Below are positions 1 to 64,000 of a stretch of DNA of 64,000 nucleotides, one piece after another. The translations under genes were made by a program, and so were the position numbers. The notes below the pieces were generated by a model. It was not told the origin of the DNA. It searched no databases and worked only from the letters and a program-made list of their open reading frames with translations. The first letter of the stretch is position 1. Every line of letters starts with the position of its first letter. Origin of the DNA: Eukaryota sp. GEM-RC1. Taxonomy: Eukaryota. Location: contig JAUFOQ010000010.1 in the NCBI GenBank assembly GCA_040285855.1, forward strand, positions 620,001-684,000, read 5' to 3'.

Positions 1-499
1 ATAAGTCACACATAAACAAATATCAAAGCAGTTTAGCAGTCGATCATACACAGATTGATTTTCAGTTTTACCCGGTAATTAAGACTCGTCATATCGAAAA
101 GTTCATTTGCTATTGTTTTCAACTACACCACGTATTAAATGGTATCTGGAAATGATGTAACATTATACTACATGTTTTGAAATGATTCGAATCACCGACA
201 CAGTGTCTCGTTATTAACACGGTTGTATTTTTTCTCAAAAAACAGCTTAATTGTCCATGAGTTGAGTGATGCTTTGATTATTCTTAGTGATTTATAAGAT
301 GTACAGTATCCTTTTGTATCTACTCCAAAGATATTTTAGTCATGGTAATTTATTAAATATTGGTCAAAATTAGGTTGTTCGTTAGATTCTGTTTTAGTGA
401 TCTGTGATTTAATTGGAAATCTTGTCACACAATTGTCCTAACATACAAAGTAGGTTTTTGTTTATCTTAAATTGAGTTTATTATCTAACATTATCTAAG

Positions 500-1132
500 C
501 TTCTCTTTACTGGATATGGGTTCTATGAACCGGCTAGCATTTCCGATTTCTATCTACATTACAACTCAACTGGTCCTGAAGGCGCTATTGCAATTGCTGA
601 AGCTTTGAAGGAGAATTCGTCTGTTTTTTCGATCAATCTAGGTAACAACTCAATTGGTAATGAAGGCGCTATTGCAATTGCTGAAGCTTTGAAGGTGAAT
701 TCGTCTGTTTCTACGATCAATCTAGGTAACAACTCAATTGGTAATGAAGGCGCTATTGCAATTGCTGAAGCTTTGAAGGTGAATTCGTCTGTTTTTTCGA
801 TCAATCTAGGTAACAACTCAATTGGTAATGAAGGCGCTATTGCAATTGCTGAAGCTTTGAAGGTGAATTCGTCTGTTTCTACGATCTATCTAGGTAACAA
901 CTCAATTGGTCCTGAAGGCGCTATTGCAATTGCTGAAGCTTTGAAGGTGAATTCGTCTGTTTCTACGATCAATCTAGGTAACAACTCAATTGGTAATGAA
1001 GGCGCTATTGCAATTGCTGAAGCTTTGAAGGTGAATTCGTCTGTTTCTTCGATTTATCTACATAGCAACTCAATTAACAGTCAAACACAACAGTCGTTAA
1101 AATCACTACACAAGAATAGAATTCATTTCTAA
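500..1132 (+). CDS. LRR cassette, unit 1 (5 extra 28-aa RI-class modules); no in-frame ATG
   Basis: Repeats of KVNSSVSTIxLxxNSIGxEGAIAIAEAL ending in NRIHF*. Frame is open back to TGA 473-475. Start is placed at the candidate splice acceptor, and expression is unproven. Confidence 0.7.
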   Translation, partial: LLFTGYGFYEPASISDFYLHYNSTGPEGAIAIAEALKENSSVFSINLGNNSIGNEGAIAIAEALKVNSSVSTINLGNNSIGNEGAIAIAEALKVNSSVFSINLGNNSIGNEGAIAIAEALKVNSSVSTIYLGNNSIGPEGAIAIAEALKVNSSVSTINLGNNSIGNEGAIAIAEALKVNSSVSSIYLHSNSINSQTQQSLKSLHKNRIHF

Positions 1133-1665
1133 AGATATTTTCCTCTGATAGAAAGATCACCCCATTATAAGTCACACATAAACAAATATCAAAGCAGTTT
1201 AGCAGTCGATCATACACAGATTGATTTTCAGTTTTACCCGGTAATTAAGACTCGTCATATCGAAAAGTTCATTTGCTATTGTTTTCAACAACACCACGTA
1301 TTAAATGGTATCTGGAAATGATGTAACATTATACTACATGTTTTGAAATGATTCGAATCACCGACACAGTGTCTCGTTATTAACACGGTTGTATTTTTTC
1401 TCAAAAAACAGCTTAATTGTCCATGAGTTGAGTGATGCTTTGATTATTCTTAGTGATTTATAAGATGTACAGTATCCTTTTGTATCTACTCCAAAGATAT
1501 TTTAGTCATGGTAATTTATTAAATATTGGTCAAAATTAGGTTGTTCGTTAGATTCTGTTTTAGTGATCTGTGATTTAATTGGAAATCTTGTCACACAATT
1601 GTCCTAACATACAAAGTAGGTTTTTGTTTATCTTAAATTGAGTTTATTATCTAACATTATCTAAG

Positions 1666-2718
1666 CTTCTCTTTACTGGATATGGGTTCTATGAACCGGC
1701 TAGCATTTCCGATTTCTATCTACATTACAACTCAACTGGTCCTGAAGGCGCTATTGCAATTGCTGAAGCTTTGAAGGTGAATTCGTCTGTTTTTTCGATC
1801 AATCTAGGTAACAACTCAATTGGTAATGAAGGCGCTATTGCAATTGCTGAAGCTTTGAAGGTGAATTCGTCTGTTTCTACGATCTATCTAGGTAACAACT
1901 CAATTGGTAATGAAGGCGCTATTGCAATTGCTGAAGCTTTGAAGGTGAATTCGTCTGTTTCTACGATCTATCTACATAACAACTCAATTGGTCCTGAAGG
2001 CGCTATTGCAATTGCTGAAGCTTTGAAGGTGAATTCTTCAGTTTCTACGATTTATCTACATTACAACTCAATTGGTCCTGAAGGCGCTACTGTAATTGCT
2101 GAAGCTTTGAAGGTGAATTCTTCACTTTCTAGAATCGATCTAGATGGCAACTTAATTGGTAATGAAGGCACTATTGCAATTGCCGAAGCTTTGAAGGTGA
2201 ATTCTTCACTTTCTAGAATCGATCTAAATAACAACTCAATTGGTAATGAAGGCGCTATTGCAATTGCTGAAGCTTTGAAGGTGAATTCGTCTGTTTTTTC
2301 GATCAATCTAGGTAACAACTCAATTGGTAATGAAGGCGCTATTGCAATTGCTGAAGCTTTGAAGGTGAATTCGTCTGTTTCTACGATCTATCTACATAAC
2401 AACTCAATTGGTCCTGAAGGCGCTATTGCAATTGCTGAAGCTTTGAAGGTGAATTCTTCAGTTTCTACGATTTATCTACATTACAACTCAATTGGTCCTG
2501 AAGGCGCTATTGCAATTGCTGAAGCTTTGAAGGTGAATTCGTCTGTTTCTACGATCAATCTAGGTAACAACTCAATTGGTAATGAAGGCGCTATTGCAAT
2601 TGCTGAAGCTTTGAAGGTGAATTCTTCTGTTTCTTCGATTTATCTACATAGCAACTCAATTAACAGTCAAACACAACAGTCGTTAAAATCACTACACAAG
2701 AATAGAATTCATTTCTAA
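1666..2718 (+). CDS. LRR cassette, unit 2 (10 extra modules)
   Basis: ORF track 1771-2718 (315 aa = 35 + 10x28), with the same ATG-less leader. Confidence 0.7.
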   Translation, partial: LLFTGYGFYEPASISDFYLHYNSTGPEGAIAIAEALKVNSSVFSINLGNNSIGNEGAIAIAEALKVNSSVSTIYLGNNSIGNEGAIAIAEALKVNSSVSTIYLHNNSIGPEGAIAIAEALKVNSSVSTIYLHYNSIGPEGATVIAEALKVNSSLSRIDLDGNLIGNEGTIAIAEALKVNSSLSRIDLNNNSIGNEGAIAIAEALKVNSSVFSINLGNNSIGNEGAIAIAEALKVNSSVSTIYLHNNSIGPEGAIAIAEALKVNSSVSTIYLHYNSIGPEGAIAIAEALKVNSSVSTINLGNNSIGNEGAIAIAEALKVNSSVSSIYLHSNSINSQTQQSLKSLHKNRIHF

Positions 2719-4743
2719 AGATATTTTCCTCTGATAGAAAGATCACCCCATTATAAGTCACACATAAACAAATATCAAAGCAGTTTAGCAGTCGATCATA
2801 CACAGATTGATTTTCAGTTTTACCCGGTAATTAAGACTCGTCATATCGAAAAGTTCATTTGCTATTGTTTTCAACAACACCACGTATTAAATGGTATCTG
2901 GAAATGATGTAACATTATACTACATGTTTTGAAATGATTCGAATCACCGACACAGTGTCTCGTTATTAACACGGTTGTATTTTTTCTCAAAAAACAGCTT
3001 AATTGTCCATGAGTTGAGTGATGCTTTGATTATTCTTAGTGATTTATAAGATGTACAGTATCCTTTTGTATCTACTCCAAAGATATTTTAGTCGTGGTAA
3101 TTTATTAAATATTGGTCAAAATTAGGTTGTTCGTTAGATTCTGTTTTAGTGATCTGTGATTTAATTGGAAATCTTGTCACACAATTGTCCTAACATACAA
3201 AGTAGGTTTTTGTTTATCTTAAATTGAGTTTATTATCTAACATTATCTAAGCTTCTCTTTACTGGATATGGGTTCTATGAACCGGCTAGCATTTCCGATT
3301 TCTATCTACATTACAACTCAACTGGTCCTGAAGGCGCTATTGCAATTGCTGAAGCTTTGAAGGTGAATTCTTCACTGTCTACGATTTATCTACGTAACAA
3401 CTCAATTAACAGTCAAACACAACAATCATTAAAATCACTACACAAGAATAGAATTCATTTCTAAAGATATTTTCCTCTGATAGAAAGATCACCCCATTAT
3501 AAGTCACACATAAACAAATATCAAAGCAGTTTAGCAGTCGATCATACACAGATTGATTTTCAGTTTTACCCGGTAATTAAGACTCGTCATATCGAAAAGT
3601 TCATTTGCTATTGTTTTCAACAACACCACGTATTAATTGGTATCTGGAAATGATGTAACATTATACTATATGTTTCGAAATGATTCGAATCACCGACACA
3701 GTGTCTCGCTGTTAACACGGTTGTATTTTTTCTCAAAAAACAGCTTAATTGTCCATGAGTTGAGTGATGCTTTGATTATTCTTAGTGATTTATAAGATGT
3801 ACAGTATCCTTTTGTATCTACTCCAAAGATATTTTAGTCGTGGTAATTTATTAAATATTGGTCAAAATTAGGTTGTTCGTTAGATTCTGTTTTAGTGATC
3901 TGTGATTTAATTGGAAATCTTGTCACACAATTGTCCTAACATACAAAGTAGGTTTTTGTTTATCTTAAATTGAGTTTATTATCTAACATTATCTAAGCTT
4001 CTCTTTACTGGATATGGGTTCTATGAACCGGCTAGCATTTCCGATTTCTATCTACATTACAACTCAACTGGTCCTGAAGGCGCTATTGCAATTGCTGAAG
4101 CTTTGAAGGTGAATTCTTCACTGTCTACGATTTATCTACGTAACAACTCAATTAACAGTCAAACACAACAATCATTAAAATCACTACACAAGAATAGAAT
4201 TCATTTCTAAAGATATTTTCCTCTGATAGAAAGATCACCCCATTATAAGTCACACATAAACAAATATCAAAGCAGTTTAGCAGTCGATCATACACAGATT
4301 GATTTTCAGTTTTACCCGGTAATTAAGACTCGTCATATCGAAAAGTTCATTTGCTATTGTTTTCAACAACACCACGTATTAAATGGTATCTGGAAATGAT
4401 GTAACATTATACTACATGTTTTGAAATGATTCGAATCACCGACACAGTGTCTCGTTATTAACACGGTTGTATTTTTTCTCAAAAAACAGCTTAATTGTCC
4501 ATGAGTTGAGTGATGCTTTGATTATTCTTAGTGATTTATAAGATGTACAGTATCCTTTTGTATCTACTCCAAAGATATTTTAGTCGTGGTAATTTATTAA
4601 ATATTGGTCAAAATTAGGTTGTTCGTTAGATTCTGTTTTAGTGATCTGTGATTTAATTGGAAATCTTGTCACACAATTGTCCTAACATACAAAGTAGGTT
4701 TTTGTTTATCTTAAATTGAGTTTATTATCTAACATTATCTAAG

Positions 4744-5376
4744 CTTCTCTTTACTGGATATGGGTTCTATGAACCGGCTAGCATTTCCGATTTCTATCTA
4801 CATTACAACTCAACTGGTCCTGAAGGCGCTATTGCAATTGCTGAAGCTTTGAAGGAGAATTCGTCTGTTTTTTCGATCAATCTAGGTAACAACTCAATTG
4901 GTAATGAAGGCGCTATTGCAATTGCTGAAGCTTTGAAGGTGAATTCGTCTGTTTCTACGATCAATCTAGGTAACAACTCAATTGGTAATGAAGGCGCTAT
5001 TGCAATTGCTGAAGCTTTGAAGGTGAATTCGTCTGTTTTTTCGATCAATCTAGGTAACAACTCAATTGGTAATGAAGGCGCTATTGCAATTGCTGAAGCT
5101 TTGAAGGTGAATTCGTCTGTTTCTACGATCTATCTAGGTAACAACTCAATTGGTCCTGAAGGCGCTATTGCAATTGCTGAAGCTTTGAAGGTGAATTCGT
5201 CTGTTTCTACGATCAATCTAGGTAACAACTCAATTGGTAATGAAGGCGCTATTGCAATTGCTGAAGCTTTGAAGGTGAATTCGTCTGTTTCTTCGATTTA
5301 TCTACATAGCAACTCAATTAACAGTCAAACACAACAGTCGTTAAAATCACTACACAAGAATAGAATTCATTTCTAA
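4744..5376 (+). CDS. LRR cassette, unit 5 (5 extra modules; same protein as unit 1)
   Basis: Identical translation to 605-1132, offset 4244 bp. Confidence 0.7.
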   Translation, partial: LLFTGYGFYEPASISDFYLHYNSTGPEGAIAIAEALKENSSVFSINLGNNSIGNEGAIAIAEALKVNSSVSTINLGNNSIGNEGAIAIAEALKVNSSVFSINLGNNSIGNEGAIAIAEALKVNSSVSTIYLGNNSIGPEGAIAIAEALKVNSSVSTINLGNNSIGNEGAIAIAEALKVNSSVSSIYLHSNSINSQTQQSLKSLHKNRIHF

Positions 5377-5909
5377 AGATATTTTCCTCTGATAGAAAGA
5401 TCACCCCATTATAAGTCACACATAAACAAATATCAAAGCAGTTTAGCAGTCGATCATACACAGATTGATTTTCAGTTTTACCCGGTAATTAAGACTCGTC
5501 ATATCGAAAAGTTCATTTGCTATTGTTTTCAACAACACCACGTATTAAATGGTATCTGGAAATGATGTAACATTATACTACATGTTTTGAAATGATTCGA
5601 ATCACCGACACAGTGTCTCGTTATTAACACGGTTGTATTTTTTCTCAAAAAACAGCTTAATTGTCCATGAGTTGAGTGATGCTTTGATTATTCTTAGTGA
5701 TTTATAAGATGTACAGTATCCTTTTGTATCTACTCCAAAGATATTTTAGTCATGGTAATTTATTAAATATTGGTCAAAATTAGGTTGTTCGTTAGATTCT
5801 GTTTTAGTGATCTGTGATTTAATTGGAAATCTTGTCACACAATTGTCCTAACATACAAAGTAGGTTTTTGTTTATCTTAAATTGAGTTTATTATCTAACA
5901 TTATCTAAG

Positions 5910-6962
5910 CTTCTCTTTACTGGATATGGGTTCTATGAACCGGCTAGCATTTCCGATTTCTATCTACATTACAACTCAACTGGTCCTGAAGGCGCTATTG
6001 CAATTGCTGAAGCTTTGAAGGTGAATTCGTCTGTTTTTTCGATCAATCTAGGTAACAACTCAATTGGTAATGAAGGCGCTATTGCAATTGCTGAAGCTTT
6101 GAAGGTGAATTCGTCTGTTTCTACGATCTATCTAGGTAACAACTCAATTGGTAATGAAGGCGCTATTGCAATTGCTGAAGCTTTGAAGGTGAATTCGTCT
6201 GTTTCTACGATCTATCTACATAACAACTCAATTGGTCCTGAAGGCGCTATTGCAATTGCTGAAGCTTTGAAGGTGAATTCTTCAGTTTCTACGATTTATC
6301 TACATTACAACTCAATTGGTCCTGAAGGCGCTACTGTAATTGCTGAAGCTTTGAAGGTGAATTCTTCACTTTCTAGAATCGATCTAGATGGCAACTTAAT
6401 TGGTAATGAAGGCACTATTGCAATTGCCGAAGCTTTGAAGGTGAATTCTTCACTTTCTAGAATCGATCTAAATAACAACTCAATTGGTAATGAAGGCGCT
6501 ATTGCAATTGCTGAAGCTTTGAAGGTGAATTCGTCTGTTTTTTCGATCAATCTAGGTAACAACTCAATTGGTAATGAAGGCGCTATTGCAATTGCTGAAG
6601 CTTTGAAGGTGAATTCGTCTGTTTCTACGATCTATCTACATAACAACTCAATTGGTCCTGAAGGCGCTATTGCAATTGCTGAAGCTTTGAAGGTGAATTC
6701 TTCAGTTTCTACGATTTATCTACATTACAACTCAATTGGTCCTGAAGGCGCTATTGCAATTGCTGAAGCTTTGAAGGTGAATTCGTCTGTTTCTACGATC
6801 AATCTAGGTAACAACTCAATTGGTAATGAAGGCGCTATTGCAATTGCTGAAGCTTTGAAGGTGAATTCTTCTGTTTCTTCGATTTATCTACATAGCAACT
6901 CAATTAACAGTCAAACACAACAGTCGTTAAAATCACTACACAAGAATAGAATTCATTTCTAA
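5910..6962 (+). CDS. LRR cassette, unit 6 (10 extra modules; same protein as unit 2)
   Basis: Identical translation to 1771-2718, offset 4244 bp. Confidence 0.7.
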   Translation, partial: LLFTGYGFYEPASISDFYLHYNSTGPEGAIAIAEALKVNSSVFSINLGNNSIGNEGAIAIAEALKVNSSVSTIYLGNNSIGNEGAIAIAEALKVNSSVSTIYLHNNSIGPEGAIAIAEALKVNSSVSTIYLHYNSIGPEGATVIAEALKVNSSLSRIDLDGNLIGNEGTIAIAEALKVNSSLSRIDLNNNSIGNEGAIAIAEALKVNSSVFSINLGNNSIGNEGAIAIAEALKVNSSVSTIYLHNNSIGPEGAIAIAEALKVNSSVSTIYLHYNSIGPEGAIAIAEALKVNSSVSTINLGNNSIGNEGAIAIAEALKVNSSVSSIYLHSNSINSQTQQSLKSLHKNRIHF

Positions 6963-9900
6963 AGATATTTTCCTCTGATAGAAAGATCACCCCATTATAA
7001 GTCACACATAAACAAATATCAAAGCAGTTTAGCAGTCGATCATACACAGATTGATTTTCAGTTTTACCCGGTAATTAAGACTCGTCATATCGAAAAGTTC
7101 ATTTGCTATTGTTTTCAACAACACCACGTATTAAATGGTATCTGGAAATGATGTAACATTATACTACATGTTTTGAAATGATTCGAATCACCGACACAGT
7201 GTCTCGTTATTAACACGGTTGTATTTTTTCTCAAAAAACAGCTTAATTGTCCATGAGTTGAGTGATGCTTTGATTATTCTTAGTGATTTATAAGATGTAC
7301 AGTATCCTTTTGTATCTACTCCAAAGATATTTTAGTCGTGGTAATTTATTAAATATTGGTCAAAATTAGGTTGTTCGTTAGATTCTGTTTTAGTGATCTG
7401 TGATTTAATTGGAAATCTTGTCACACAATTGTCCTAACATACAAAGTAGGTTTTTGTTTATCTTAAATTGAGTTTATTATCTAACATTATCTAAGCTTCT
7501 CTTTACTGGATATGGGTTCTATGAACCGGCTAGCATTTCCGATTTCTATCTACATTACAACTCAACTGGTCCTGAAGGCGCTATTGCAATTGCTGAAGCT
7601 TTGAAGGTGAATTCTTCACTGTCTACGATTTATCTACGTAACAACTCAATTAACAGTCAAACACAACAATCATTAAAATCACTACACAAGAATAGAATTC
7701 ATTTCTAAAGATATTTTCCTCTGATAGAAAGATCACCCCATTATAAGTCACACATAAACAAATATCAAAGCAGTTTAGCAGTCGATCATACACAGATTGA
7801 TTTTCAGTTTTACCCGGTAATTAAGACTCGTCATATCGAAAAGTTCATTTGCTATTGTTTTCAACAACACCACGTATTAATTGGTATCTGGAAATGATGT
7901 AACATTATACTATATGTTTCGAAATGATTCGAATCACCGACACAGTGTCTCGCTGTTAACACGGTTGTATTTTTTCTCAAAAACAGCTTAATTGTCCATG
8001 AGTTGAGTGATGCTTTGATTATTCTTAGTGATTTATAAGATGTACAGTATCCTTTTGTATCTACTCCAAAGATATTTTAGTCGTGGTAATTTATTAAATA
8101 TTGGTCAAAATTAGGTTGTTCGTTAGATTCTGTTTTAGTGATCTGTGATTTAATTGGAAATCTTGTCACACAATTGTCCTAACATACAAAGTAGGTTTTT
8201 GTTTATCTTAAATTGAGTTTATTATCTAACATTATCTAAGCTTCTCTTTACTGGATATGGGTTCTATGAACCGGCTAGCATTTCCGATTTCTATCTACAT
8301 TACAACTCAACTGGTCCTGAAGGCGCTATTGCAATTGCTGAAGCTTTGAAGGTGAATTCTTCACTGTCTACGATTTATCTACGTAACAACTCAATTAACA
8401 GTCAAACACAACAATCATTAAAATCACTACACAAGAATAGAATTCATTTCTAAAGATATTTTCCTCTGATAGAAAGATCACCCCATTATAAGTCACACAT
8501 AAACAAATATCAAAGCAGTTTAGCAGTCGATCATACACAGATTGATTTTCAGTTTTACCCGGTAATTAAGACTCGTCATATCGAAAAGTTCATTTGCTAT
8601 TGTTTTCAACAACACCACGTATTAAATGGTATCTGGAAATGATGTAACATTATACTACATGTTTTGAAATGATTCGAATCACCGACACAGTGTCTCGTTA
8701 TTAACACGGTTGTATTTTTTCTCAAAAAACAGCTTAATTGTCCATGAGTTGAGTGATGCTTTGATTATTCTTAGTGATTTATAAGATGTACAGTATCCTT
8801 TTGTATCTACTCCAAAGATATTTTAGTCGTGGTAATTTATTAAATATTGGTCAAAATTAGGTTGTTCGTTAGATTCTGTTTTAGTGATCTGTGATTTAAT
8901 TGGAAATCTTGTCACACAATTGTCCTAACATACAAAGTAGGTTTTTGTTTATCTTAAATTGAGTTTATTATCTAACATTATCTAAGCTTCTCTTTACTGG
9001 ATATGGGTTCTATGAACCGGCTAGCATTTCCGATTTCTATCTACATTACAACTCAACTGGTCCTGAAGGCGCTATTGCAATTGCTGAAGCTTTGAAGGTG
9101 AATTCTTCACTGTCTACGATTTATCTACGTAACAACTCAATTAACAGTCAAACACAACAATCATTAAAATCACTACACAAGAATAGAATTCATTTCTAAA
9201 GATATTTTCCTCTGATAGAAAGATCACCCCATTATAAGTCACACATAAACAAATATCAAAGCAGTTTAGCAGTCGATCATACACAGATTGATTTTCAGTT
9301 TTACCCGGTAATTAAGACTCGTCATATCGAAAAGTTCATTTGCTATTGTTTTCAACAACACCACGTATTAAATGGTATCTGGAAATGATGTAACATTATA
9401 CTACATGTTTTGAAATGATTCGAATCACCGACACAGTGTCTCGTTATTAACACGGTTGTATTTTTTCTCAAAAAACAGCTTAATTGTCCATGAGTTGAGT
9501 GATGCTTTGATTATTCTTAGTGATTTATAAGATGTACAGTATCCTTTTGTATCTACTCCAAAGATATTTTAGTCGTGGTAATTTATTAAATATTGGTCAA
9601 AATTAGGTTGTTCGTTAGATTCTGTTTTAGTGATCTGTGATTTAATTGGAAATCTTGTCACACAATTGTCCTAACATACAAAGTAGGTTTTTGTTTATCT
9701 TAAATTGAGTTTATTATCTAACATTATCTAAGCTTCTCTTTACTGGATATGGGTTCTATGAACCGGCTAGCATTTCCGATTTCTATCTACATTACAACTC
9801 AACTGGTCCTGAAGGCGCTATTGCAATTGCTGAAGCTTTGAAGGTGAATTCTTCACTGTCTACGATTTATCTACGTAACAACTCAATTAACAGTCAAACA

Positions 9901-12900: not shown

Positions 12901-15900
12901 CACTACACAAGAATAGAATTCATTTCTAAAGATATTTTCCTCTGATAGAAAGATCACCCCATTATAAGTCACACATAAACAAATATCAAAGCAGTTTAGC
13001 AGTCGATCATACACAGATTGATTTTCAGTTTTACCCGGTAATTAAGACTCGTCATATCGAAAAGTTCATTTGCTATTGTTTTCAACAACACCACGTATTA
13101 AATGGTATCTGGAAATGATGTAACATTATACTACATGTTTTGAAATGATTCGAATCACCGACACAGTGTCTCGTTATTAACACGGTTGTATTTTTTCTCA
13201 AAAAACAGCTTAATTGTCCATGAGTTGAGTGATGCTTTGATTATTCTTAGTGATTTATAAGATGTACAGTATCCTTTTGTATCTACTCCAAAGATATTTT
13301 AGTCGTGGTAATTTATTAAATATTGGTCAAAATTAGGTTGTTCGTTAGATTCTGTTTTAGTGATCTGTGATTTAATTGGAAATCTTGTCACACAATTGTC
13401 CTAACATACAAAGTAGGTTTTTGTTTATCTTAAATTGAGTTTATTATCTAACATTATCTAAGCTTCTCTTTACTGGATATGGGTTCTATGAACCGGCTAG
13501 CATTTCCGATTTCTATCTACATTACAACTCAACTGATCCTGAAGGCGCTATTGCAATTGCTGAAGCTTTGAAGGTGAATTCTTCACTGTCTACGATTTTA
13601 TCTACGTAACAACTCAATTAACAGTCAAACACAACAATCATTAAAATCACTGCACAAGAATAGAATTCGTTTCTAAAGATATTTTCCTCTGATATAAAGA
13701 TCACCCCATTATAAGTCACACATGAACAAATATCAAAGCAGTTTAGCAGTCGATCATACACAGATTGATTTTCAGTTTTACCCGGTAATTAAGACTCGTC
13801 ATATCGAAAAGTTCATTTGCTATTGTTTTCAACAACACCACGTATTAAATGGTATCTGGAAATGATGTAACATTATACTACATGTTTTGAAATGATTCGA
13901 ATCACCGACACAGTGTCTCGTTATTAACACGGTTGTATTTTTTCTCAAAAAACAGCTTAATTGTCCATGAGTTGAGTGATGCTTTGATTATTCTTAGTGA
14001 TTTATAAGATGTACAGTATCCTTTTGTATCTACTCCAAAGATATTTTAGTCGTGGTAATTTATTAAATATTGGTCAAAATTAGGTTGTTCGTTAGATTCT
14101 GTTTTAGTGATCTGTGATTTAATTGGAAATCTTGTCACACAATTGTCCTAACATACAAAGTAGGTTTTTGTTTATCTTAAATTGAGTTTATTATCTAACA
14201 TTATCTAAGCTTCTCTTTACGGGATATGGGTTCTATGAACCGGCTAGAATTTCCGATTTCTATCTACATTACAACTCAACTGGTCCTGAAGGCGCTATTG
14301 CAATTGCTGAAGGTTTGAAGGTGAATTCTTCACTTTCTACGATCTATCTACGTAACAACTCAATTAACAGTCAAACACAACAATCATTAAAATCACTACA
14401 CAAGAATAGAATTCATTTCTAAAGATATTTTCCTCTGATAGAAAGATCACCCCATTATAAGTCACACATAAACAAATATCAAAGCAGTTTAGCAGTCGAT
14501 CATACACAGATTGATTTTCAGTTTTACCCGGTAATTAAGACTCGTCATATCGAAAAGTTCATTTGCTATTGTTTTCAACAACACCACGTATTAAATGGTA
14601 TCTGGAAATGATGTAACATTATACTACATGTTTTGAAATGATTCGAATCACCGACACAGTGTCTCGTTATTAACACGGTTGTATTTTTTCTCAAAAAACA
14701 GCTTAATTGTCGTTATGTTGAGTGATGCTTTGATTATTCTTAGTGATTTATAAGATGTACAGTATCCTTTTGTATCTATTCCAAAGATATTTTAGTCATG
14801 GTAATTTATTGAATATTGGTCAAAATTAGGTTATTCGTTAGATTCTGTTTTAGTGATCTGTAATTTAATTGGAAATCTTGTCACACAATTGTCTTAACAT
14901 ACAAAGTAGGTTTTTGTTTATCTTAAATTGAGTATATTATCTAACATTATCTAAGCTTCTCTTTACGGGATATGGGTTCTATGAACCGGCTAGAATTTCC
15001 GATTTCTATCTACATTACAACTCAACTGGTCCTGAAGGCGCTATTGCAATTGCTGAAGGTTTGAAGGTGAATTCTTCACTTTCTACGATCTATCTACGTA
15101 ACAACTCAATTAACAGTCAAACACAACAATCATTAAAATCACTACACAAGAATAGAATTCATTTCTAAAGATATTTTCCTCTGATAGAAAGATCACCCCA
15201 TTATAAGTCACACATAAACAAATATCAAAGCAGTTTAGCAGTCGATCATACACAGATTGATTTTCAGTTTTACCCGGTAATTAAGACTCGTCATATCGAA
15301 AAGTTCATTTGCTATTGTTTTCAACAACACCACGTATTAAATGGTATCTGGAAATGATGTAACATTATACTACATGTTTTGAAATGATTCGAATCACCGA
15401 CACAGTGTCTCGTTATTAACACGGTTGTATTTTTTCTCAAAAAACAGCTTAATTGTCCATGAGTTGAGTGATGCTTTGATTATTCTTAGTGATTTATAAG
15501 ATGTACAGTATCCTTTTGTATCTACTCCAAAGATATTTTAGTCGTGGTAATTTATTAAATATTGGTCAAAATTAGGTTGTTCGTTAGATTCTGTTTTAGT
15601 GATCTGTGATTTAATTGGAAATCTTGTCACACAATTGTCCTAACATACAAAGTAGGTTTTTGTTTATCTTAAATTGAGTTTATTATCTAACATTATCTAA
15701 GCTTCTCTTTACTGGATATGGGTTCTATGAACCGGCTAGCATTTCCGATTTCTATCTACATTACAACTCAACTGGTCCTGAAGGCGCTATTGCAATTGCT
15801 GAAGCTTTGAAGGTGAATTCTTCACTGTCTACGATTTATCTACGTAACAACTCAATTAACAGTCAAACACAACAATCATTAAAATCACTACACAAGAATA

Positions 15901-17406: not shown

Positions 17407-17939
17407 AGATATTTTCCTCTGATAGAAAGATCACCCCATTATAAGTCACACATAAACAAATATCAAAGCAGTTTAGCAGTCGATCATACACAGATTGATT
17501 TTCAGTTTTACCCGGTAATTAAGACTCGTCATATCGAAAAGTTCATTTGCTATTGTTTTCAACAACACCACGTATTAAATGGTATCTGGAAATGATGTAA
17601 CATTATACTACATGTTTTGAAATGATTCGCATCACCGACACAGTGTCTCGTTATTAACACGGTTGTATTTTTTCTCAAAAAACAGCTTAATTGTCGTTAT
17701 GTTGAGTGATGCTTTGATTATTCTTAGTGATTTATAAGATGTACAGTATCCTTTTGTATCTATTCCAAAGATATTTTAGTCATGGTAATTTATTGAATAT
17801 TGGTCAAAATTAGGTTATTCGTTAGATTCTGTTTTAGTGATCTGTAATTTAATTGGAAATCTTGTCACACAATTGTCTTAACATACAAAGTAGGTTTTTG
17901 TTTATCTTAAATTGAGTTTATTATCTAACATTATCTAAG

Positions 17940-18404
17940 CTTCTCTTTACGGGATATGGGTTCTATGAACCGGCTAGAATTTCCGATTTCTATCTACATT
18001 ACAACTCAACTGGTCCTGAAGGCGCTATTGCAATTGCTGAAGGTTTGAAGGTGAATTCTTCACTTTCTACGATCTATCTATATAACAACTCAATTGGTAC
18101 TGAAGGCGCTATTGCAATTGCTGAAGCTTTGAAGGTGAATTCTTCACTTTCTATGATCGATCTACGTAACAACTCAATTGGTCCTGAAGGCGCTATTGCA
18201 ATTGCTGAAGCTTTGAAGGTGAATTCGTCTGTTTCTACGATCAATCTAAATAACAACTCAATTGGTAATGAAGGCGCTATTGCAATTGCTGAAGGTTTGA
18301 AGGTGAATTCGTCTGTTTCTTCGATTTATCTACATGGCAACTCAATTAACAGTCAAACACAACAGTCGTTAAAATCACTGCACAAGAATAGAATTCATTT
18401 CTAA
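17940..18404 (+). CDS. LRR cassette, unit 21 (3 extra modules)
   Basis: ORF track 18045-18404, 119 aa = 35 + 3x28. Confidence 0.65.
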   Translation, partial: LLFTGYGFYEPARISDFYLHYNSTGPEGAIAIAEGLKVNSSLSTIYLYNNSIGTEGAIAIAEALKVNSSLSMIDLRNNSIGPEGAIAIAEALKVNSSVSTINLNNNSIGNEGAIAIAEGLKVNSSVSSIYLHGNSINSQTQQSLKSLHKNRIHF

Positions 18405-21175: not shown

Positions 21176-21640
21176 CTTCTCTTTACGGGATATGGGTTCT
21201 ATGAACCGGCTAGAATTTCCGATTTCTATCTACATTACAACTCAACTGGTCCTGAAGGCGCTATTGCAATTGCTGAAGGTTTGAAGGTGAATTCTTCACT
21301 TTCTACGATCTATCTATATAACAACTCATTTGGTACTGAAGGCGCTATTGCAATTGCTGAAGCTTTGAAGGTGAATTCTTCACTTTCTATGATCGATCTA
21401 CGTAACAACTCAATTGGTCCTGAAGGCGCTATTGCAATTGCTGAAGCTTTGAAGGTGAATTCGTCTGTTTCTACGATCAATCTAAATAACAACTCAATTG
21501 GTAATGAAGGCGCTATTGCAATTGCTGAAGGTTTGAAGGTGAATTCGTCTGTTTCTTCGATTTATCTACATAGCAACTCAATTAACAGTCAAACACAACA
21601 GTCGTTAAAATCACTGCACAAGAATAGAATTCATTTCTAA
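21176..21640 (+). CDS. LRR cassette, unit 25 (3 extra modules)
   Basis: ORF track 21281-21640. Confidence 0.65.
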   Translation, partial: LLFTGYGFYEPARISDFYLHYNSTGPEGAIAIAEGLKVNSSLSTIYLYNNSFGTEGAIAIAEALKVNSSLSMIDLRNNSIGPEGAIAIAEALKVNSSVSTINLNNNSIGNEGAIAIAEGLKVNSSVSSIYLHSNSINSQTQQSLKSLHKNRIHF

Positions 21641-22173
21641 AGATATTTTCCTCTGATATAAAGATCACCCCATTATAAGTCACACATAAACAAATATCAA
21701 AGCAGTTTAGCAGTCGATCATACACAGATTGATTTTCAGTTTTACCCGGTAATTAAGACTCGTCATATCGAAAAGTTCATTTGCTATTGTTTTCAACAAC
21801 ACCACGTATTAAATGGTATCTGGAAATGATGTAACATTATACTACATGTTTTGAAATGATTCGAATCACCGACACAATGTCTCGTTATTAACACGGTTGT
21901 ATTTTTTCTCAAAAAACAGCTTAATTGTCGTTATGTTGAGTGATGCTTTGATTATTCTTAGTGATTTATAAGATGTACAGTATCCTTTTGTATCTACTCC
22001 AAAGATATTTTAGTCATGGTAATTTATTAAATATTGGTCAAAATTAGGTTGTTCGTTAGATTCTGTTTTAGTGATCTGTGATTTAATTGGAAATCTTGTC
22101 ACACAATTGTCCTAACATACAAAGTAGGTTTTTGTTTATCTTAAATTGAGTTTATTATCTAACATTATCTAAG

Positions 22174-23058
22174 CTTCTCTTTACGGGATATGGGTTCTAT
22201 GAACCGGCTAGCATTTCCGATTTCTATCTACATTACAACTCAACTGGTCCTGAAGGCGCTATTGCAATTGCTGAAGCTTTGAAGGTGAATTCGTTTGTTT
22301 CTACGATTGTTCTAGGTAACAACTCAATTGGTCCTGAAGGCGCTATTGCAATTGCTGAAGCTTTGAAGGTGAATTCGTCTGTTTCTTCGATTTATCTATA
22401 TAACAACTCAATTGGTCCTGAAGGTGCTATTGCAATTGCTGAAGCTTTGAAGGTGAATTCGTCTGTTTCTACGATCGATCTATTTAGCAACTCAATTGGT
22501 AATGAAGGCGCTATTGCAATTGCTGAAGCTTTGAAAGTGAATTCGTCTGTTTCTTCGATTTATCTATATAACAACTCAATTGGTAATGAAGGCGCTATTG
22601 CAATTGCTGCAGCTTTGAAAGTGAATTCGTCTGTTTCTTCGATTTATCTATATAACAACTCAATTGGTAATGAAGGCGCTATTGCAATTGCTGCAGCTTT
22701 GAAAGTGAATTCGTCTGTTTCTTCGATTTATCTATATAACAACTCAATTGGTAATGAAGGCGCTATTGCAATTGCTGAAGCTTTGAAGGTGAATTCTTCA
22801 GTTTCTACGATCAATCTACATAGCAACTCAATTGGTCCTGAAGGCGCTATTGCAATTGCTGAAGCTTTGAAGGTGAATTCGTCTGTTTCTACGATCAATC
22901 TAAATAACAACTCAATTGGTAATGAAGGCGCTATTGCAATTGCTGAAGGTTTGAAGGTGAATTCGTCTGTTTCTTCGATTTATCTACATAGCAACTCAAT
23001 TAACAGTCAAACACAACAGTCGTTAAAATCACTGCACAAGAATAGAATTCATTTCTAA
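22174..23058 (+). CDS. LRR cassette, unit 26 (8 extra modules, distinctive module set)
   Basis: ORF track 22279-23058, 259 aa. Includes STIVLGN, STIDLFS and SSIYLYN modules. Confidence 0.7.
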   Translation, partial: LLFTGYGFYEPASISDFYLHYNSTGPEGAIAIAEALKVNSFVSTIVLGNNSIGPEGAIAIAEALKVNSSVSSIYLYNNSIGPEGAIAIAEALKVNSSVSTIDLFSNSIGNEGAIAIAEALKVNSSVSSIYLYNNSIGNEGAIAIAAALKVNSSVSSIYLYNNSIGNEGAIAIAAALKVNSSVSSIYLYNNSIGNEGAIAIAEALKVNSSVSTINLHSNSIGPEGAIAIAEALKVNSSVSTINLNNNSIGNEGAIAIAEGLKVNSSVSSIYLHSNSINSQTQQSLKSLHKNRIHF

Positions 23059-23591
23059 AGATATTTTCCTCTGATATAAAGATCACCCCATTATAAGTCA
23101 CACATAAACAAATATCAAAGCAGTTTAGCAGTCGATCATACACAGATTGATTTTCAGTTTTACCCGGTAATTAAGACTCGTCATATCGAAAAGTTCATTT
23201 GCTATTGTTTTCAACAACACCACGTATTAAATGGTATCTGGAAATGATGTAACATTATACTACATGTTTTGAAATGATTCGAATCACCGACACAGTGTCT
23301 CGTTATTAACACGGTTGTATTTTTTCTCAAAAAACAGCTTAATTGTCGTTATGTTGAGTGATGCTTTGATTATTCTTAGTGATTTATAAGATGTACAGTA
23401 TCCTTTTGTATCTATTCCAAAGATATTTTAGTCATGGTAATTTATTGAATATTGGTCAAAATTAGGTTATTCGTTAGATTCTGTTTTAGTGATCTGTAAT
23501 TTAATTGGAAATCTTGTCACACAATTGTCTTAACATACAAAGTAGGTTTTTGTTTATCTTAAATTGAGTTTATTATCTAACATTATCTAAG

Positions 23592-24056
23592 CTTCTCTTT
23601 ACGGGATATGGGTTCTATGAACCGGCTAGAATTTCCGATTTCTATCTACATTACAACTCAACTGGTCCTGAAGGCGCTATTGCAATTGCTGAAGGTTTGA
23701 AGGTGAATTCTTCACTTTCTACGATCTATCTATATAACAACTCAATTGGTACTGAAGGCGCTATTGCAATTGCTGAAGCTTTGAAGGTGAATTCTTCACT
23801 TTCTATGATCGATCTACGTAACAACTCAATTGGTCCTGAAGGCGCTATTGCAATTGCTGAAGCTTTGAAGGTGAATTCGTCTGTTTCTACGATCAATCTA
23901 GGTAACAACTCAATTGGTAATGAAGGCGCTATTGCAATTGCTGAAGCTTTGAAGGTGAATTCGTCTGTTTCTTCGATTTATCTACATAGCAACTCAATTA
24001 ACAGTCAAACACAACAGTCGTTAAAATCACTACACAAGAATAGAATTCATTTCTAA
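23592..24056 (+). CDS. LRR cassette, unit 27 (3 extra modules)
   Basis: ORF track 23697-24056. Confidence 0.65.
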   Translation, partial: LLFTGYGFYEPARISDFYLHYNSTGPEGAIAIAEGLKVNSSLSTIYLYNNSIGTEGAIAIAEALKVNSSLSMIDLRNNSIGPEGAIAIAEALKVNSSVSTINLGNNSIGNEGAIAIAEALKVNSSVSSIYLHSNSINSQTQQSLKSLHKNRIHF

Positions 24057-24589
24057 AGATATTTTCCTCTGATATAAAGATCACCCCATTATAAGTCACA
24101 CATAAACAAATATCAAAGCAGTTTAGCAGTCGATCATACACAGATTGATTTTCAGTTTTACCCGGTAATTAAGACTCGTCATATCGAAAAGTTCATTTGC
24201 TATTGTTTTCAACAACACCACGTATTAAATGGTATCTGGAAATGATGTAACATTATACTACATGTTTTGAAATGATTCGAATCACCGACACAGTGTCTCG
24301 TTATTAACACGGTTGTATTTTTTCTCAAAAAACAGCTTAATTGTCGTTATGTTGAGTGATGCTTTGATTATTCTTAGTGATTTATAAGATGTACAGTATC
24401 CTTTTGTATCTATTCCAAAGATATTTTAGTCATGGTAATTTATTGAATATTGGTCAAAATTAGGTTATTCGTTAGATTCTGTTTTAGTGATCTGTAATTT
24501 AATTGGAAATCTTGTCACACAATTGTCTTAACATACAAAGTAGGTTTTTGTTTATCTTAAATTGAGTTTATTATCTAACATTATCTAAG

Positions 24590-25054
24590 CTTCTCTTTAC
24601 GGGATATGGGTTCTATAAACCGGCTAGAATTTCCGATTTCTATCTACATTACAACTCAACTGGTCCTGAAGGCGCTATTGCAATTGCTGAAAGTTTGAAG
24701 GTGAATTCTTCACTTTCTACGATCTATCTATATAACAACTCAATTGGTACTGAAGGCGCTATTGCAATTGCTGAAGCTTTGAAGGTGAATTCTTCACTTT
24801 CTATGATCGATCTACGTAACAACTCAATTGGTCCTGAAGGCGCTATTGCAATTGCTGAAGCTTTGAAGGTGAATTCGTCTGTTTCTACGATCAATCTAGG
24901 TAACAACTCAATTGGTAATGAAGGCGCTATTGCAATTGCTGAAGGTTTGAAGGTGAATTCGTCTGTTTCTTCGATTTATCTACATAGCAACTCAATTAAC
25001 AGTCAAACACAACAGTCGTTAAAATCACTACACAAGAATAGAATTCATTTCTAA
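24590..25054 (+). CDS. LRR cassette, unit 28 (3 extra modules)
   Basis: ORF track 24695-25054. Confidence 0.65.
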   Translation, partial: LLFTGYGFYKPARISDFYLHYNSTGPEGAIAIAESLKVNSSLSTIYLYNNSIGTEGAIAIAEALKVNSSLSMIDLRNNSIGPEGAIAIAEALKVNSSVSTINLGNNSIGNEGAIAIAEGLKVNSSVSSIYLHSNSINSQTQQSLKSLHKNRIHF

Positions 25055-25587
25055 AGATATTTTCCTCTGATATAAAGATCACCCCATTATAAGTCACACA
25101 TAAACAAATATCAAAGCAGTTTAGCAGTCGATCATACACAGATTGATTTTCAGTTTTACCCGGTAATTAAGACTCGTCATATCGAAAAGTTCATTTGCTA
25201 TTGTTTTCAACAACACCACGTATTAAATGGTATCTGGAAATGATGTAACATTATACTACATGTTTTGAAATGATTCGAATCACCGACACAGTGTCTCGTT
25301 ATTAACACGGTTGTATTTTTTCTCAAAAAACAGCTTAATTGTCGTTATGTTGAGTGATGCTTTGATTATTCTTAGTGATTTATAAGATGTACAGTATCCT
25401 TTTGTATCTATTCCAAAGATATTTTAGTCATGGTAATTTATTGAATATTGGTCAAAATTAGGTTATTCGTTAGATTCTGTTTTAGTGATCTGTAATTTAA
25501 TTGGAAATCTTGTCACACAATTGTCTTAACATACAAAGTAGGTTTTTGTTTATCTTAAATTGAGTTTATTATCTAACATTATCTAAG

Positions 25588-26052
25588 CTTCTCTTTACGG
25601 GATATGGGTTCTATGAACCGGCTAGAATTTCCGATTTCTATCTACATTACAACTCAACTGGTCCTGAAGGCGCTATTGCAATTGCTGAAGGTTTGAAGGT
25701 GAATTCTTCACTTTCTACGATCTATCTATATAACAACTCAATTGGTACTGAAGGCGCTATTGCAATTGCTGAAGCTTTGAAGGTGAATTCGTCTGTTTCT
25801 ACGATCAATCTAGGTAACAACTCAATTGGTCCTGAAGGCGCTATTGCAATTGCTGAAGCTTTGAAGGTGAATTCGTCTGTTTCTACGATCAATCTAGGTA
25901 ACAACTCAATTGGTAATGAAGGCGCTATTGCAATTGCTGAAGCTTTGAAGGTGAATTCGTCTGTTTCTTCGATTTATCTACATAGCAACTCAATTAACAG
26001 TCAAACACAACAGTCGTTAAAATCACTACACAAGAATAGAATTCATTTCTAA
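25588..26052 (+). CDS. LRR cassette, unit 29 (3 extra modules)
   Basis: ORF track 25693-26052. Confidence 0.65.
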   Translation, partial: LLFTGYGFYEPARISDFYLHYNSTGPEGAIAIAEGLKVNSSLSTIYLYNNSIGTEGAIAIAEALKVNSSVSTINLGNNSIGPEGAIAIAEALKVNSSVSTINLGNNSIGNEGAIAIAEALKVNSSVSSIYLHSNSINSQTQQSLKSLHKNRIHF

Positions 26053-26585
26053 AGATATTTTCCTCTGATATAAAGATCACCCCATTATAAGTCACACATA
26101 AACAAATATCAAAGCAGTTTAGCAGTCGATCATACACAGATTGATTTTCAGTTTTACCCGGTAATTAAGACTCGTCATATCGAAAAGTTCATTTGCTATT
26201 GTTTTCAACAACACCACGTATTAAATGGTATCTGGAAATGATGTAACATTATACTACATGTTTTGAAATGATTCGAATCACCGACACAGTGTCTCGTTAT
26301 TAACACGGTTGTATTTTTTCTCAAAAAACAGCTTAATTGTCGTTATGTTGAGTGATGCTTTGATTATTCTTAGTGATTTATAAGATGTACAGTATCCTTT
26401 TGTATCTATTCCAAAGATATTTTAGTCATGGTAATTTATTGAATATTGGTCAAAATTAGGTTATTCGTTAGATTCTGTTTTAGTGATCTGTAATTTAATT
26501 GGAAATCTTGTCACACAATTGTCTTAACATACAAAGTAGGTTTTTGTTTATCTTAAATTGAGTTTATTATCTAACATTATCTAAG

Positions 26586-26882
26586 CTTCTCTTTACGGGA
26601 TATGGGTTCTATGAACCGGCTAGAATTTCCGATTTCTATCTACATTACAACTCAACTGGTCCTGAAGGCGCTATTGCAATTGCTGAAGCTTTGAAGGTGA
26701 AATCGTTTGTTTCTACGGTTGGTCTAGGTAACAACTCAATTGATGATGAAGGCGCTATTGCAATTGCTGAAGCTTTGAAGGTAAATTCGTCTGTTTCTAC
26801 GATTTATCTACATAGCAACTCAATTAACAGTCAAACACAACAGTCGTTAAAATCACTACACAAGAATAGAATTCATTTCTAA
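26586..26882 (+). CDS. LRR cassette, unit 30 (1 extra module)
   Basis: ORF track 26691-26882, 63 aa = 35 + 28. Confidence 0.6.
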   Translation, partial: LLFTGYGFYEPARISDFYLHYNSTGPEGAIAIAEALKVKSFVSTVGLGNNSIDDEGAIAIAEALKVNSSVSTIYLHSNSINSQTQQSLKSLHKNRIHF

Positions 26883-27499
26883 AGATATTTTCCTCTGATA
26901 TAAAGATCACCCCATTATAAGTCACACATAAACAAATATCAAAGCAGTTTAGCAGTCGATCATACACAGATTGATTTTCAGTTTTACCCGGTAATTAAGA
27001 CTCGTCATATCGAAAAGTTCATTTGCTATTGTTTTCAACAACACCACGTATTAATTGGTATCTGGAAATGATGTAACATTATACTATATGTTTCGAAATA
27101 TTTCGAATCACCGACACAGTGTCTCGCTGTTAACACGGTTGTATTTTTTCTCAAAAAACAGCTTAATTGTCCTTGAGTTGAGTGATGCTTTGATTATTCT
27201 CAGTGATATATAAGATGTACAGTATCCTTTTGTATGTGTTCCATAGATATTTTAGTCATGGTAATTTATTGAATATTGGTCAAAATTAGGTTGTTCGTTA
27301 GATTCTATTTTAGTGATCTGTAATTTTATTGGAAATCTTGTCGCACAATTGTCTTAACATACAAAGTAGGTCTTTGCTTATCTTAAATTGAGTGTGTTAT
27401 CTAACGTTATCTAAGCTTCTTTTTAATAGATTTGTGTTCTATAAACCGGCTAGAATTTCTGACTTCTATCTACATAACAACTCAATTGGTACTGAAGGC
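26883..27499 (+). pseudogene. Diverged terminal array unit, truncated inside its first LRR module
   Basis: Spacer carries many private substitutions. Homology stops abruptly after ...ggtactgaaggc at 27499. Confidence 0.85.
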
Positions 27500-29583: not shown

Positions 29584-29799
29584 GATACTTTCGTCGTCAG
29601 AAGGTGGTAAGTTGGGGAGATCTGAGAGTCTCGTTCGGAGGCTTTAGACACAAAGGATTTTGCTATAGAAATCAGTTGAGCAAATGATTTCATTACTTTG
29701 GTGGATTCTGGTTCCTGAGCAGAACTGTTGAATCTAGAAGTTGTTGGATGGATTAGAATGATGATGGTACTGTGAATTGCATTTGTGTTGCATACTACT

Positions 29800-63940: not shown

Positions 63941-64000
63941 GAGGATAATAATTATTAATACCTAAAGGTGCAAAGGGGAAGGTAAAGGGTGTTTATAAAT

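What the first reader, a model, noticed from the sequence alone, without database searches (positions are those of the whole stretch)
1..27499. Array of 30 variable-length LRR cassettes: candidate recombining repertoire of binding modules
Seen: each unit has a constant spacer, constant leader half-module, 0-10 exchangeable 84-bp LRR modules and a constant cap with stop. All 11 multi-module cassettes stay in frame, and modules recur in different orders in different units. Cassettes resemble the 3' half of the full-length LRR genes at 41421 and 51909 but lack their N-terminal domain. Established analogues: lamprey VLR donor cassettes, Borrelia vls and trypanosome VSG silent donors, Ectocarpus ROCO LRR exon shuffling, Podospora HNWD repeats. 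Inference: the units could be silent gene-conversion donors, alternative last exons, a tandem family of small LRR-only proteins, or just a satellite derived from a gene 3' end.
Basis: partly seen in the sequence, partly recalled or inferred. Interest (0 to 1): 0.88.

Follow-up and report, generated by a model that had tools for sequence, protein, structure and literature searches.

The report
Headless LRR tails of TRIM-like ligases
Thirty tandem, headless copies of the variable binding end of a predicted ubiquitin-ligase gene family sit in an anaerobic protist genome, likely multiplied by unequal crossing-over and likely trading binding modules with the full genes as a passive reservoir rather than a programmed immune-like system.

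Summary
The array is real: 30 units (746-1586 bp) plus a truncated, diverged 31st, each a ~595-bp spacer, a short leader, 1-11 84-bp LRR modules and a cap with stop. The source is a RING/B-box/B-box/coiled-coil (TRIM-like)-LRR family annotated in Eukaryota sp. GEM-RC1 (Skoliomonas): two members carry the identical cap and exact runs of up to 72 residues, and different units share diagnostic modules with different members. The leader comes from a second, dispersed family of headless LRR models, to which unit 31 is closest. Variation sits at the strand positions (pN 0.36, pS 0.04; framework 0.04, 0.10), and units are recombinant. But 19 of 30 units are near-identical one-module copies, three cassettes are damaged, and family paralogs reshuffle modules with no array known. 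Best reading: a tail array born by unequal crossing-over that likely exchanges modules with the family, as in Podospora HNWD genes. Programmed donor use is not shown; no reads or genome were available.

The parts
1..27499 (+). Tandem array of headless LRR tails, 30 full units plus truncated unit 31; begins inside a spacer, so it probably continues left of the window
1..8487 (+). Higher-order repeat: units 1-4 (1-4244) and 5-8 (4245-8487), 3 differences
1705..2718 (+). Unit 2 cassette, 11 modules (unit 6 identical); shares a 67-residue internal run and a 72-residue C-terminal run exactly with P0015
22213..23058 (+). Unit 26 cassette, 9 modules; shares 26- and 27-residue exact runs with P0004 that hold the AAAL and STINLHS variants; folds as a ribonuclease-inhibitor-type LRR (pLDDT 87.8)
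3291..3464 (+). Unit 3 cassette, type of the 19 one-module units (8 wholly identical)
13502..13676 (+). Unit 15 cassette: 1-bp insertion; its cap reads NRIRF like the dispersed leader family
24803..25054 (+). 83-aa Met-started piece of unit 28 that is on record as a protein (P0230)
26053..26624 (+). Spacer (example between units 29 and 30): 3' flank of the cap, then the region that the dispersed gene models read as a MYSILL exon plus a 138-nt intron; an invariant in-frame TGA follows in all 30 units; no protein, RNA-family, inverted-repeat or G4 signal found
26562..26660 (+). Leader (example unit 30), LTLSKLL...ISDFYLHYNST; shared with the dispersed 143-aa LRR-only models P0229, P0349-P0351; disordered in the model
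26817..26882 (+). Cap NSINSQTQQSLKSLHKNRIHF* (example unit 30), identical to the C-terminus of P0004 and P0015
26917..27499 (+). Unit 31: most diverged spacer, leader closest to the dispersed family (27 of 32 residues against 21-22 of 32 for units 3 and 30), cut off in mid-module; likely the ancestral seed copy

Best explanation
The array is a run of 30 headless copies of the LRR tail of a RING/B-box/coiled-coil (TRIM-like)-LRR gene family, likely multiplied by unequal crossing-over and likely trading binding-face modules with the full genes as a passive reservoir, not as a programmed cassette system. Steps. (1) Shown: each unit is leader + modules + cap + spacer with no start codon in frame; cap and modules match P0004 and P0015; the leader matches a dispersed family of headless LRR models. 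(2) Inferred: a gene with the NRIHF cap once lay upstream of one such orphan tail (now unit 31); out-of-register crossover between an 84-bp module of the gene and the first module of the orphan made the first hybrid unit [orphan leader + gene modules k..n + gene cap + spacer], with k free, hence the variable module number and the automatic frame. (3) Shown: units have since recombined and amplified in blocks. (4) Shown for pattern, inferred for cause: module diversity lies at the strand positions and is non-synonymous, so it was likely selected in working genes and copied into the array. (5) Inferred, untested: the same homology lets a full gene pick up a new tail or module from the array, so the array would act as an archive of binding faces for predicted substrate-recognising E3 ligases.
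For: Exact cap in P0004 and P0015 only, apart from the window's own P0230, among 354 fetched proteins; 19 of 354 carry the cap-family motif, 18 labelled GEMRC1. Modules 96% identical to P0004/P0015 against 58-60% to the in-window genes. Units 2/6 share SRIDLDG only with P0015, unit 26 shares STINLHS only with P0004, so more than one gene has fed or drawn on the array. P0004/P0015 N-termini align to residues 220-343 of the RING-B-box protein P0121; Pfam finds RING and two B-box stretches in P0019 and P0034; PDB hits of the N-terminal half are TRIM28, TRIM2, TRIM3, TRIM25, TRIM21; AlphaFold gives long helices at 165-220 and 244-280. Leader shared with 4 sequences (5 accessions) of 143-aa models, unit 31 closest. 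Recombination: 79 of 253 pairs incompatible, Rm at least 4; neighbours more alike (Mantel rho 0.29, p 0.001). pN/pS 0.362/0.040 at codons 5, 23, 25, 27, 28 against 0.044/0.103 elsewhere; positional entropy tracks that of family members with other caps (rho 0.45, p 0.017). Paralog pairs with 98.5% and 97.6% identical N-termini share 1 and 0 strand types. A gene model on another contig (P0231) joins two identical tails, so tail duplication recurs. P0230 is listed with the same longest-contig length as P0004, P0015 and the leader family, which fits linkage in cis.
Against: The left end of the array, where the model predicts a full gene, is outside the window and no genome was held. No DNA of P0004/P0015 was available, so shared modules cannot be given a direction and could reflect descent from one long ancestor. 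P0004 and P0015 as annotated lack RING and B-boxes; they may be split models or truncated genes. 13 of 19 strand types in the array were not found in the 9 family proteins compared (one of them, STIYLYN, turned up later in the leader family), so their source is unseen. The five 'exposed' codons were picked partly from the data and hold few synonymous sites; pairwise pN/pS on recombining repeats is not a formal selection test. If the assembly is Nanopore with short-read polishing, as for the named relative (PMC11316075), fine-scale mosaics, the three damaged cassettes and the four-unit repeat may include errors.
Confidence: 0.55

Rival explanations
1. A maintained silent-donor system (vls/pilS/VLR-like): the array is kept to convert one or a few expressed TRIM-like-LRR genes, giving cell-to-cell diversity of binding faces.
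For: Cassettes are 5'-less; 19 strand types in the array against 7 in P0004 and P0015 together; diversity is non-synonymous at strand positions; all 11 long cassettes open; candidate recipients exist and may be in cis.
Against: 19 of 30 units are near-identical one-module copies; array-only framework changes (I>T in every first module, G>D, I>F, N>K, S>F, two lost stops, one frameshift) suggest relaxed selection; no cis signal seen (no long inverted repeat, no G4); paralogs on other contigs reshuffle just as much with no array known.
Confidence: 0.17
2. A dead satellite, partly inflated by assembly: one old amplification of a gene 3' end with no further exchange; shared modules are inherited from a single long ancestor.
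For: Higher-order repeat with 3 differences, 8 identical units, local homogenisation; neighbourhood rich in transposons and broken genes; the named relative's genome is 48% repetitive (PMC11316075).
Against: Two cap haplotypes differing at two synonymous sites, unit-specific sharing with two different genes, and the leader-family cap allele in unit 15 point to several inputs; different module numbers and orders are hard to make by polishing.
Confidence: 0.13
3. A tandem family of small spliced LRR-only genes: each unit is transcribed and an intron in the spacer joins an upstream ATG to the cassette, as in the dispersed 143-aa models, whose hydrophobic N-terminus could be a signal peptide.
For: Five dispersed gene models use a MYSILL first exon whose ATG is present in the units; unit 31 has a GTATGT donor there; 14, 15 and 28 other single GT-AG introns would open the frame in units 3, 30 and 31; N-terminal hydropathy about 2.5.
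Against: The model's own splice runs into a TGA in the 3 units tested, invariant in all 30; the donor is GTATCT in units 3 and 30; the models are predictions; one-module units could not form an LRR domain; the leader is disordered in the fold.
Confidence: 0.1
4. Alternative last exons: a gene left of the window splices into any cassette through the AG just before ISDF.
For: An AG precedes ISDF in all 31 units and lines up with the start of the first strand of the full genes.
Against: The two full LRR genes in the window are unbroken ORFs of 1.6 and 2.0 kb; the one skoliomonad intron I could see is about 27-30 nt (supplement row); every unit has its own stop and 3' flank, so distal units would need read-through over many kb.
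Confidence: 0.05

Closest known systems
Podospora anserina HNWD/NWD NLR family (het-d, het-e; PMC1805685, passages read)
   Same: Intracellular receptor family with near-identical repeat modules that evolve in concert within and between loci by unequal crossing-over or conversion; a few interface codons per repeat diversify; pseudogenes keep intact repeats.
   Different: WD40 behind NACHT there, 28-aa LRR behind RING/B-box/coiled coil here; their pseudogenes are whole dispersed genes, not a tandem array of 30 headless tails; function there is genetically shown, here unknown.
Tetrahymena 90-bp-exon LRR genes (PMC6564038, passages) and brown-algal ROCO LRR exons (PMC11378527, abstract)
   Same: Protist or algal LRR families with variable module number from ectopic recombination, near retroelements; proposed immune role.
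   Different: There each module is an exon inside a gene; here modules are intron-less and the repeated unit is a whole tail with cap, stop and flank.
Neisseria pilS/pilE and Borrelia vls/vlsE (PMC4534519, passages)
   Same: Tandem 5'-less copies with conserved and variable parts that match an expressible gene.
   Different: Those are directional, high-frequency, measured conversion systems for surface antigens of pathogens, with non-redundant cassettes; here most units are redundant, the protein is predicted intracellular, and direction and rate are untested.
Lamprey VLR donor cassettes (PMC12264053, passages)
   Same: LRR-coding pieces that cannot be expressed alone.
   Different: VLR has an incomplete germline gene filled stepwise in lymphocytes with cytidine deaminases; here candidate recipients already hold full LRR tracts, the LRR class differs, and no somatic assembly is shown.
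TRIM/RBCC E3 ligases (PDB hits TRIM28, TRIM2, TRIM3, TRIM25, TRIM21)
   Same: RING, two B-boxes and a long helical region in that order in the parent family.
   Different: C-terminal domain is a fast-changing RI-type LRR; I recall no animal TRIM class with this ending (recalled, not from a call); ligase activity untested.

Membership tests
Silent-cassette gene-conversion system (vls, pilS, VSG) | Donors lack 5' end or start and cannot be expressed alone | tested here: met
   No in-frame Met in 30 of 30 leaders; invariant upstream TGA; splicing-in not excluded
Silent-cassette gene-conversion system (vls, pilS, VSG) | A full gene with the same scaffold exists | tested here: inconclusive
   P0004 and P0015 have the exact cap and modules but lack RING/B-box as annotated; expression unknown
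Silent-cassette gene-conversion system (vls, pilS, VSG) | Donor set is mostly non-redundant and kept intact | tested here: not met
   19 of 30 near-identical one-module units, 8 identical, 3 damaged
Silent-cassette gene-conversion system (vls, pilS, VSG) | Directional, frequent donor-to-recipient transfer within a clone | not testable with these tools
   No genome and no reads
Lamprey VLR-type assembly | Incomplete germline gene with a non-coding intervening stretch | tested here: not met
   Candidate recipients carry complete LRR tracts and cap; an unannotated incomplete gene cannot be excluded
Lamprey VLR-type assembly | Deaminase-driven somatic assembly | not testable with these tools
   No genome held
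HNWD-like concerted repeat shuffling | High internal repeat identity within and between loci | tested here: met
   Modules 88-96% identical to five family proteins; exact runs of 67 and 72 residues
HNWD-like concerted repeat shuffling | Few interface codons diversify on a conserved framework | tested here: met
   pN/pS 0.362/0.040 against 0.044/0.103; positions 23-28 fall on or just after the strands; not a formal codon model
HNWD-like concerted repeat shuffling | Close paralogs differ in repeat number and order | tested here: met
   P0121/P0224 9 against 11 strands, P0019/P0353 6 against 8
HNWD-like concerted repeat shuffling | NACHT-WD40 architecture and non-self recognition | tested here: not met
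   RING/B-box/LRR instead; function not tested; it works like, but is not, an HNWD family
TRIM/RBCC ligases (parent genes) | RING followed by one or two B-boxes | tested here: met
   Pfam in P0019, P0034; PDB TRIM hits
TRIM/RBCC ligases (parent genes) | Coiled coil after B-box 2 | tested here: inconclusive
   Long helices 165-220 and 244-280 at pLDDT about 50-73 in a monomer model; TRIM3 hit over residues 125-230
TRIM/RBCC ligases (parent genes) | E3 ubiquitin ligase activity | not testable with these tools
   needs an assay
Exon-shuffled LRR genes (Tetrahymena, ROCO) | One module per exon | tested here: not met
   Modules are contiguous 84-bp coding repeats with no introns

The most novel reading that the evidence does not exclude
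A free-living anaerobic flagellate keeps a bank of silent LRR tails that re-arm TRIM-like ubiquitin ligases by gene conversion or tail swapping: an intracellular, heritable, cassette-fed recognition repertoire in a single-celled non-parasite, convergent with VLR and vls systems.
Probability: 0.17. Interest if true: 0.88.

Novelty: new variant of a known kind. Interest (0 to 1): 0.56.

Why it matters
Repeat-shuffling receptor families are known from fungi, brown algae and ciliates. This locus adds a metamonad case with an unusual effector (a TRIM-like RING/B-box head on a fast-changing LRR) and catches the turnover in the act: a tandem store of whole tails that holds more binding-face variants than the two matching gene models together. 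It is also a plausible intermediate between neutral tail duplication and a true silent-cassette system, which bears on how such systems arise. The named relative is in culture and has long reads and RNA reads (PMC11316075), so direction and rate of exchange can be tested at once.

Tried and rejected
Whole genome: none held. Sequencing runs: none was listed for 26700-28200, no RNA holder listed; no reads were laid. Spacer as a decayed N-terminal domain of the in-window LRR family: no significant tblastn or HMM match (best 0.4 bits, p 0.31 against shuffles). Spacer as decayed LRR repeats: p 0.09, not accepted. Spacer frame read through its stops against 1.84 billion representatives: 0 hits. Leader as a relic of the family's N-cap helix: p 0.43 (unit 31; the unit 3 control there was read in the wrong frame and is void), rejected. 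Stop-codon reassignment: long ORFs in the window end in TAA, TAG and TGA, rejected. TRIM N-terminal exons in the window: none. Rfam: one match at E 0.65, below threshold. Promoter scan (bacterial type, of little relevance): at chance level. Inverted repeats in a unit: only 10-18-nt imperfect pairs; no G4, no telomere repeats. Cap pattern in metagenomes 0; module scaffold in viral contigs 0; P0015 in metagenomes gave 2 distant LRR loci (L001, L002, 38-43%) with no DNA match to a unit. Earlier scan notes: nothing by place or sequence. In one search the handling of unit 15 created one false module; counts are taken from one search, which leaves unit 15 out. Expression of the candidate recipients: not found in the readable supplements of PMC11316075 (gene ids there follow another scheme, so the blank says nothing; the main supplementary PDF was too large and one file was a scan).
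Full report
Observation. The array is as described. Anchors in the spacer, leader and cap give 30 full units from 1 to 26916 and a 31st cut off at 27499. A unit is about 595 bp of spacer, a short leader, 1-11 modules of 84 bp and a 66-bp cap with stop; 84 modules in all. Spacers of units 1-30 are 98.9% identical, unit 31 93.7%. All 11 multi-module cassettes are open. Nineteen units have one module, 8 are identical, units 1-4 and 5-8 differ at 3 of 4244 bases, two units have lost the stop and one has a 1-bp insertion. No leader has an in-frame Met (30 of 30). AlphaFold models the unit 26 cassette as a ribonuclease-inhibitor-type LRR (pLDDT 87.8, leader below 50); Foldseek's best matches are axonemal LRR proteins, NOD2 (TM 0.85 on the query) and ribonuclease inhibitor.

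Parents. The two full LRR genes in the window are not the source: 58-60% identity per module, other C-termini, and the spacer does not match their N-terminal domain. A protein search with the unit 26 cassette returned many proteins labelled Eukaryota sp. GEM-RC1, a skoliomonad metamonad (PMC11316075). Two, P0004 and P0015, end in the identical cap and have modules 96% identical to the array's. Their N-termini (94% alike) align to residues 220-343 of P0121, one of a family with RING and two B-boxes (Pfam), TRIM hits in the PDB and long predicted helices. So the cassettes are tails of a TRIM-like-LRR family. As annotated, P0004 and P0015 themselves lack the RING and B-boxes; they may be split models (that assembly's predictions have 9.6% fragmented BUSCOs against 3.0% in its transcriptome) or truncated genes. 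Of 354 proteins fetched, 19 carry the cap-family motif; 18 are GEMRC1-labelled and one is window-encoded. The window's organism is likely this species or close kin. The window-encoded piece P0230 (unit 28) is listed with the same longest-contig length as P0004 and P0015, which fits linkage; P0004 also occurs on a second contig.

Second input. A search among shorter proteins found four 143-aa LRR-only models (five accessions, scattered locus numbers) that carry the cassette leader and a spacer-derived MYSILL start. Unit 31 matches their leader at 27 of 32 residues, units 3 and 30 at 21 and 22. Their cap ends NRIRF; so does unit 15, by one base (one base could be error or chance). Their predicted splice (138-nt intron) runs into a TGA in the three units tested, and that TGA is invariant in all 30, though other GT-AG pairs could open the frame. 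The array is thus a hybrid: leader from a dispersed orphan family, cap and long tracts from the P0004/P0015 subfamily.

Exchange and selection. Units 2 and 6 share a 67-residue internal run with P0015, and its SRIDLDG motif occurs in no other of the 354 proteins; units 1, 2, 5, 6, 27, 29 share 72 C-terminal residues with it; unit 26 alone shares STINLHS with P0004 alone. Among units, 79 of 253 informative site pairs fail the four-gamete test (at least 4 crossovers), and neighbours are more alike. The array holds 19 strand types; 5 are exact in P0004/P0015, 1 in P0121, 13 in none of the 9 proteins compared (one appears in the leader family). Among 31 distinct modules pN/pS is 0.362/0.040 at codons 5, 23, 25, 27, 28 and 0.044/0.103 elsewhere, and the variable positions track those of family members with other caps (rho 0.45, p 0.017). 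That codons 23-28 face the ligand follows from established LRR structure and the strand positions. The codons were chosen partly from the data, so this is a pattern, not a formal test. Against upkeep of the array itself: changes at framework positions not seen in the 48 family modules compared (I>T in all first modules, G>D, I>F, N>K, S>F), two lost stops and a frameshift. Paralog pairs with 98.5% and 97.6% identical N-termini share 1 and 0 strand types and differ in module number, so the family reshuffles fast whether or not an array is near; P0231 joins two identical tails on another contig, so tail duplication recurs.

Mechanism. Most likely (0.55): a gene with the NRIHF cap lay upstream of an orphan tail; out-of-register crossover between 84-bp modules made hybrid units of free length and fixed frame; further crossover amplified them in blocks; unit 31 is the diverged end copy, later cut. 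Homology keeps the array in exchange with the family, so it stores binding faces selected elsewhere and can return them. Anatomy, sharing and recombination are shown; the origin event, the head gene, direction of transfer and any function are inferred. Rivals: maintained donor system 0.17, dead satellite partly inflated by assembly 0.13, small spliced genes 0.10, alternative last exons 0.05. A caution for all fine-scale results: the named relative's assembly is Nanopore R9.4 with short-read polishing and was repeat-masked before gene calling, so some mosaics and lesions may be errors and array-adjacent genes may be unannotated.

Comparison. It works most like Podospora HNWD genes, where repeats evolve in concert between genes and pseudogenes and four codons diversify (PMC1805685, passages), and like Tetrahymena and brown-algal LRR shuffling (PMC6564038 passages; PMC11378527 abstract). 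The layout recalls pilS and vls (PMC4534519 passages) and VLR (PMC12264053 passages), but the non-redundant donor set and the incomplete germline gene were tested and not met, and direction could not be tested. I found no description of this array or of the TRIM-like-LRR family: a search for Skoliomonas listed 9 papers, none on it by title or abstract start; the genome preprint has no 'leucine-rich' in its text; of the published version I read passages, section 6 and parts of the supplements (the main supplementary PDF was too large); searches gave nothing on it. The library lacks most subscription papers.

Verdict. Real, a new variant of a known kind, with an unreported-looking parent family; interest 0.56. 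The cassette-fed repertoire reading is open at about 0.17.

Noticed in passing
relatives P0121, P0224, P0019, P0353, P0034: A family of RING-B-box-B-box-helical-LRR proteins whose close paralogs keep the N-terminus (97.6-98.5%) but replace nearly all LRR strands; worth study in its own right as a fast-changing substrate-receptor repertoire.
   Followed up: partly
relatives P0151/P0225, P0013, P0125: Related LRR tails with a similar N-cap are fused to other heads in the same labelled organism: BTB (PF00651), protein kinase (PF00069) and reticulon (PF02453).
   Followed up: no
relative P0231: Gene model made of two identical MVRNE + one module + cap tails, a sign of another tail duplication on a different contig.
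   Followed up: no
window 27482-27760 (-): The array ends in mid-module, joined directly to a 92-codon minus-strand frame (MERSTK...) with no Pfam match and no second copy in the window.
   Followed up: partly
window 29800-30970: hAT-like non-autonomous element: 9-bp terminal inverted repeats, 8-bp target duplication ATACTACT, broken transposase with the dimerisation domain.
   Followed up: partly
window 28563-29643 (-) and 34742-35613 (-): Two broken members of the N-domain LRR family of the genes at 41391 and 51891 (frameshifts, one stop); real decay or assembly indels.
   Followed up: partly
window 36649-38217 and 38306-39873: Tandem duplication, 98.4% identical; each copy holds a small cysteine-rich, signal-peptide-like gene split by the same frameshift at a C run.
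   Followed up: no
window 46626-48870 (+): Non-LTR retroelement-like reverse transcriptase in two overlapping frames (RVT_1).
   Followed up: no
window 54011-56574 (+): Membrane-protein-like gene in pieces with in-frame stops, interrupted by an insert bounded by 82-bp direct repeats (54301-54382, 55085-55166).
   Followed up: no
window 57239-64000 (-): LTR retrotransposon with open 944-aa gag-like and 1340-aa pol frames (RT, RNase H, integrase) and a 51-bp repeat at both ends; looks recent.
   Followed up: no
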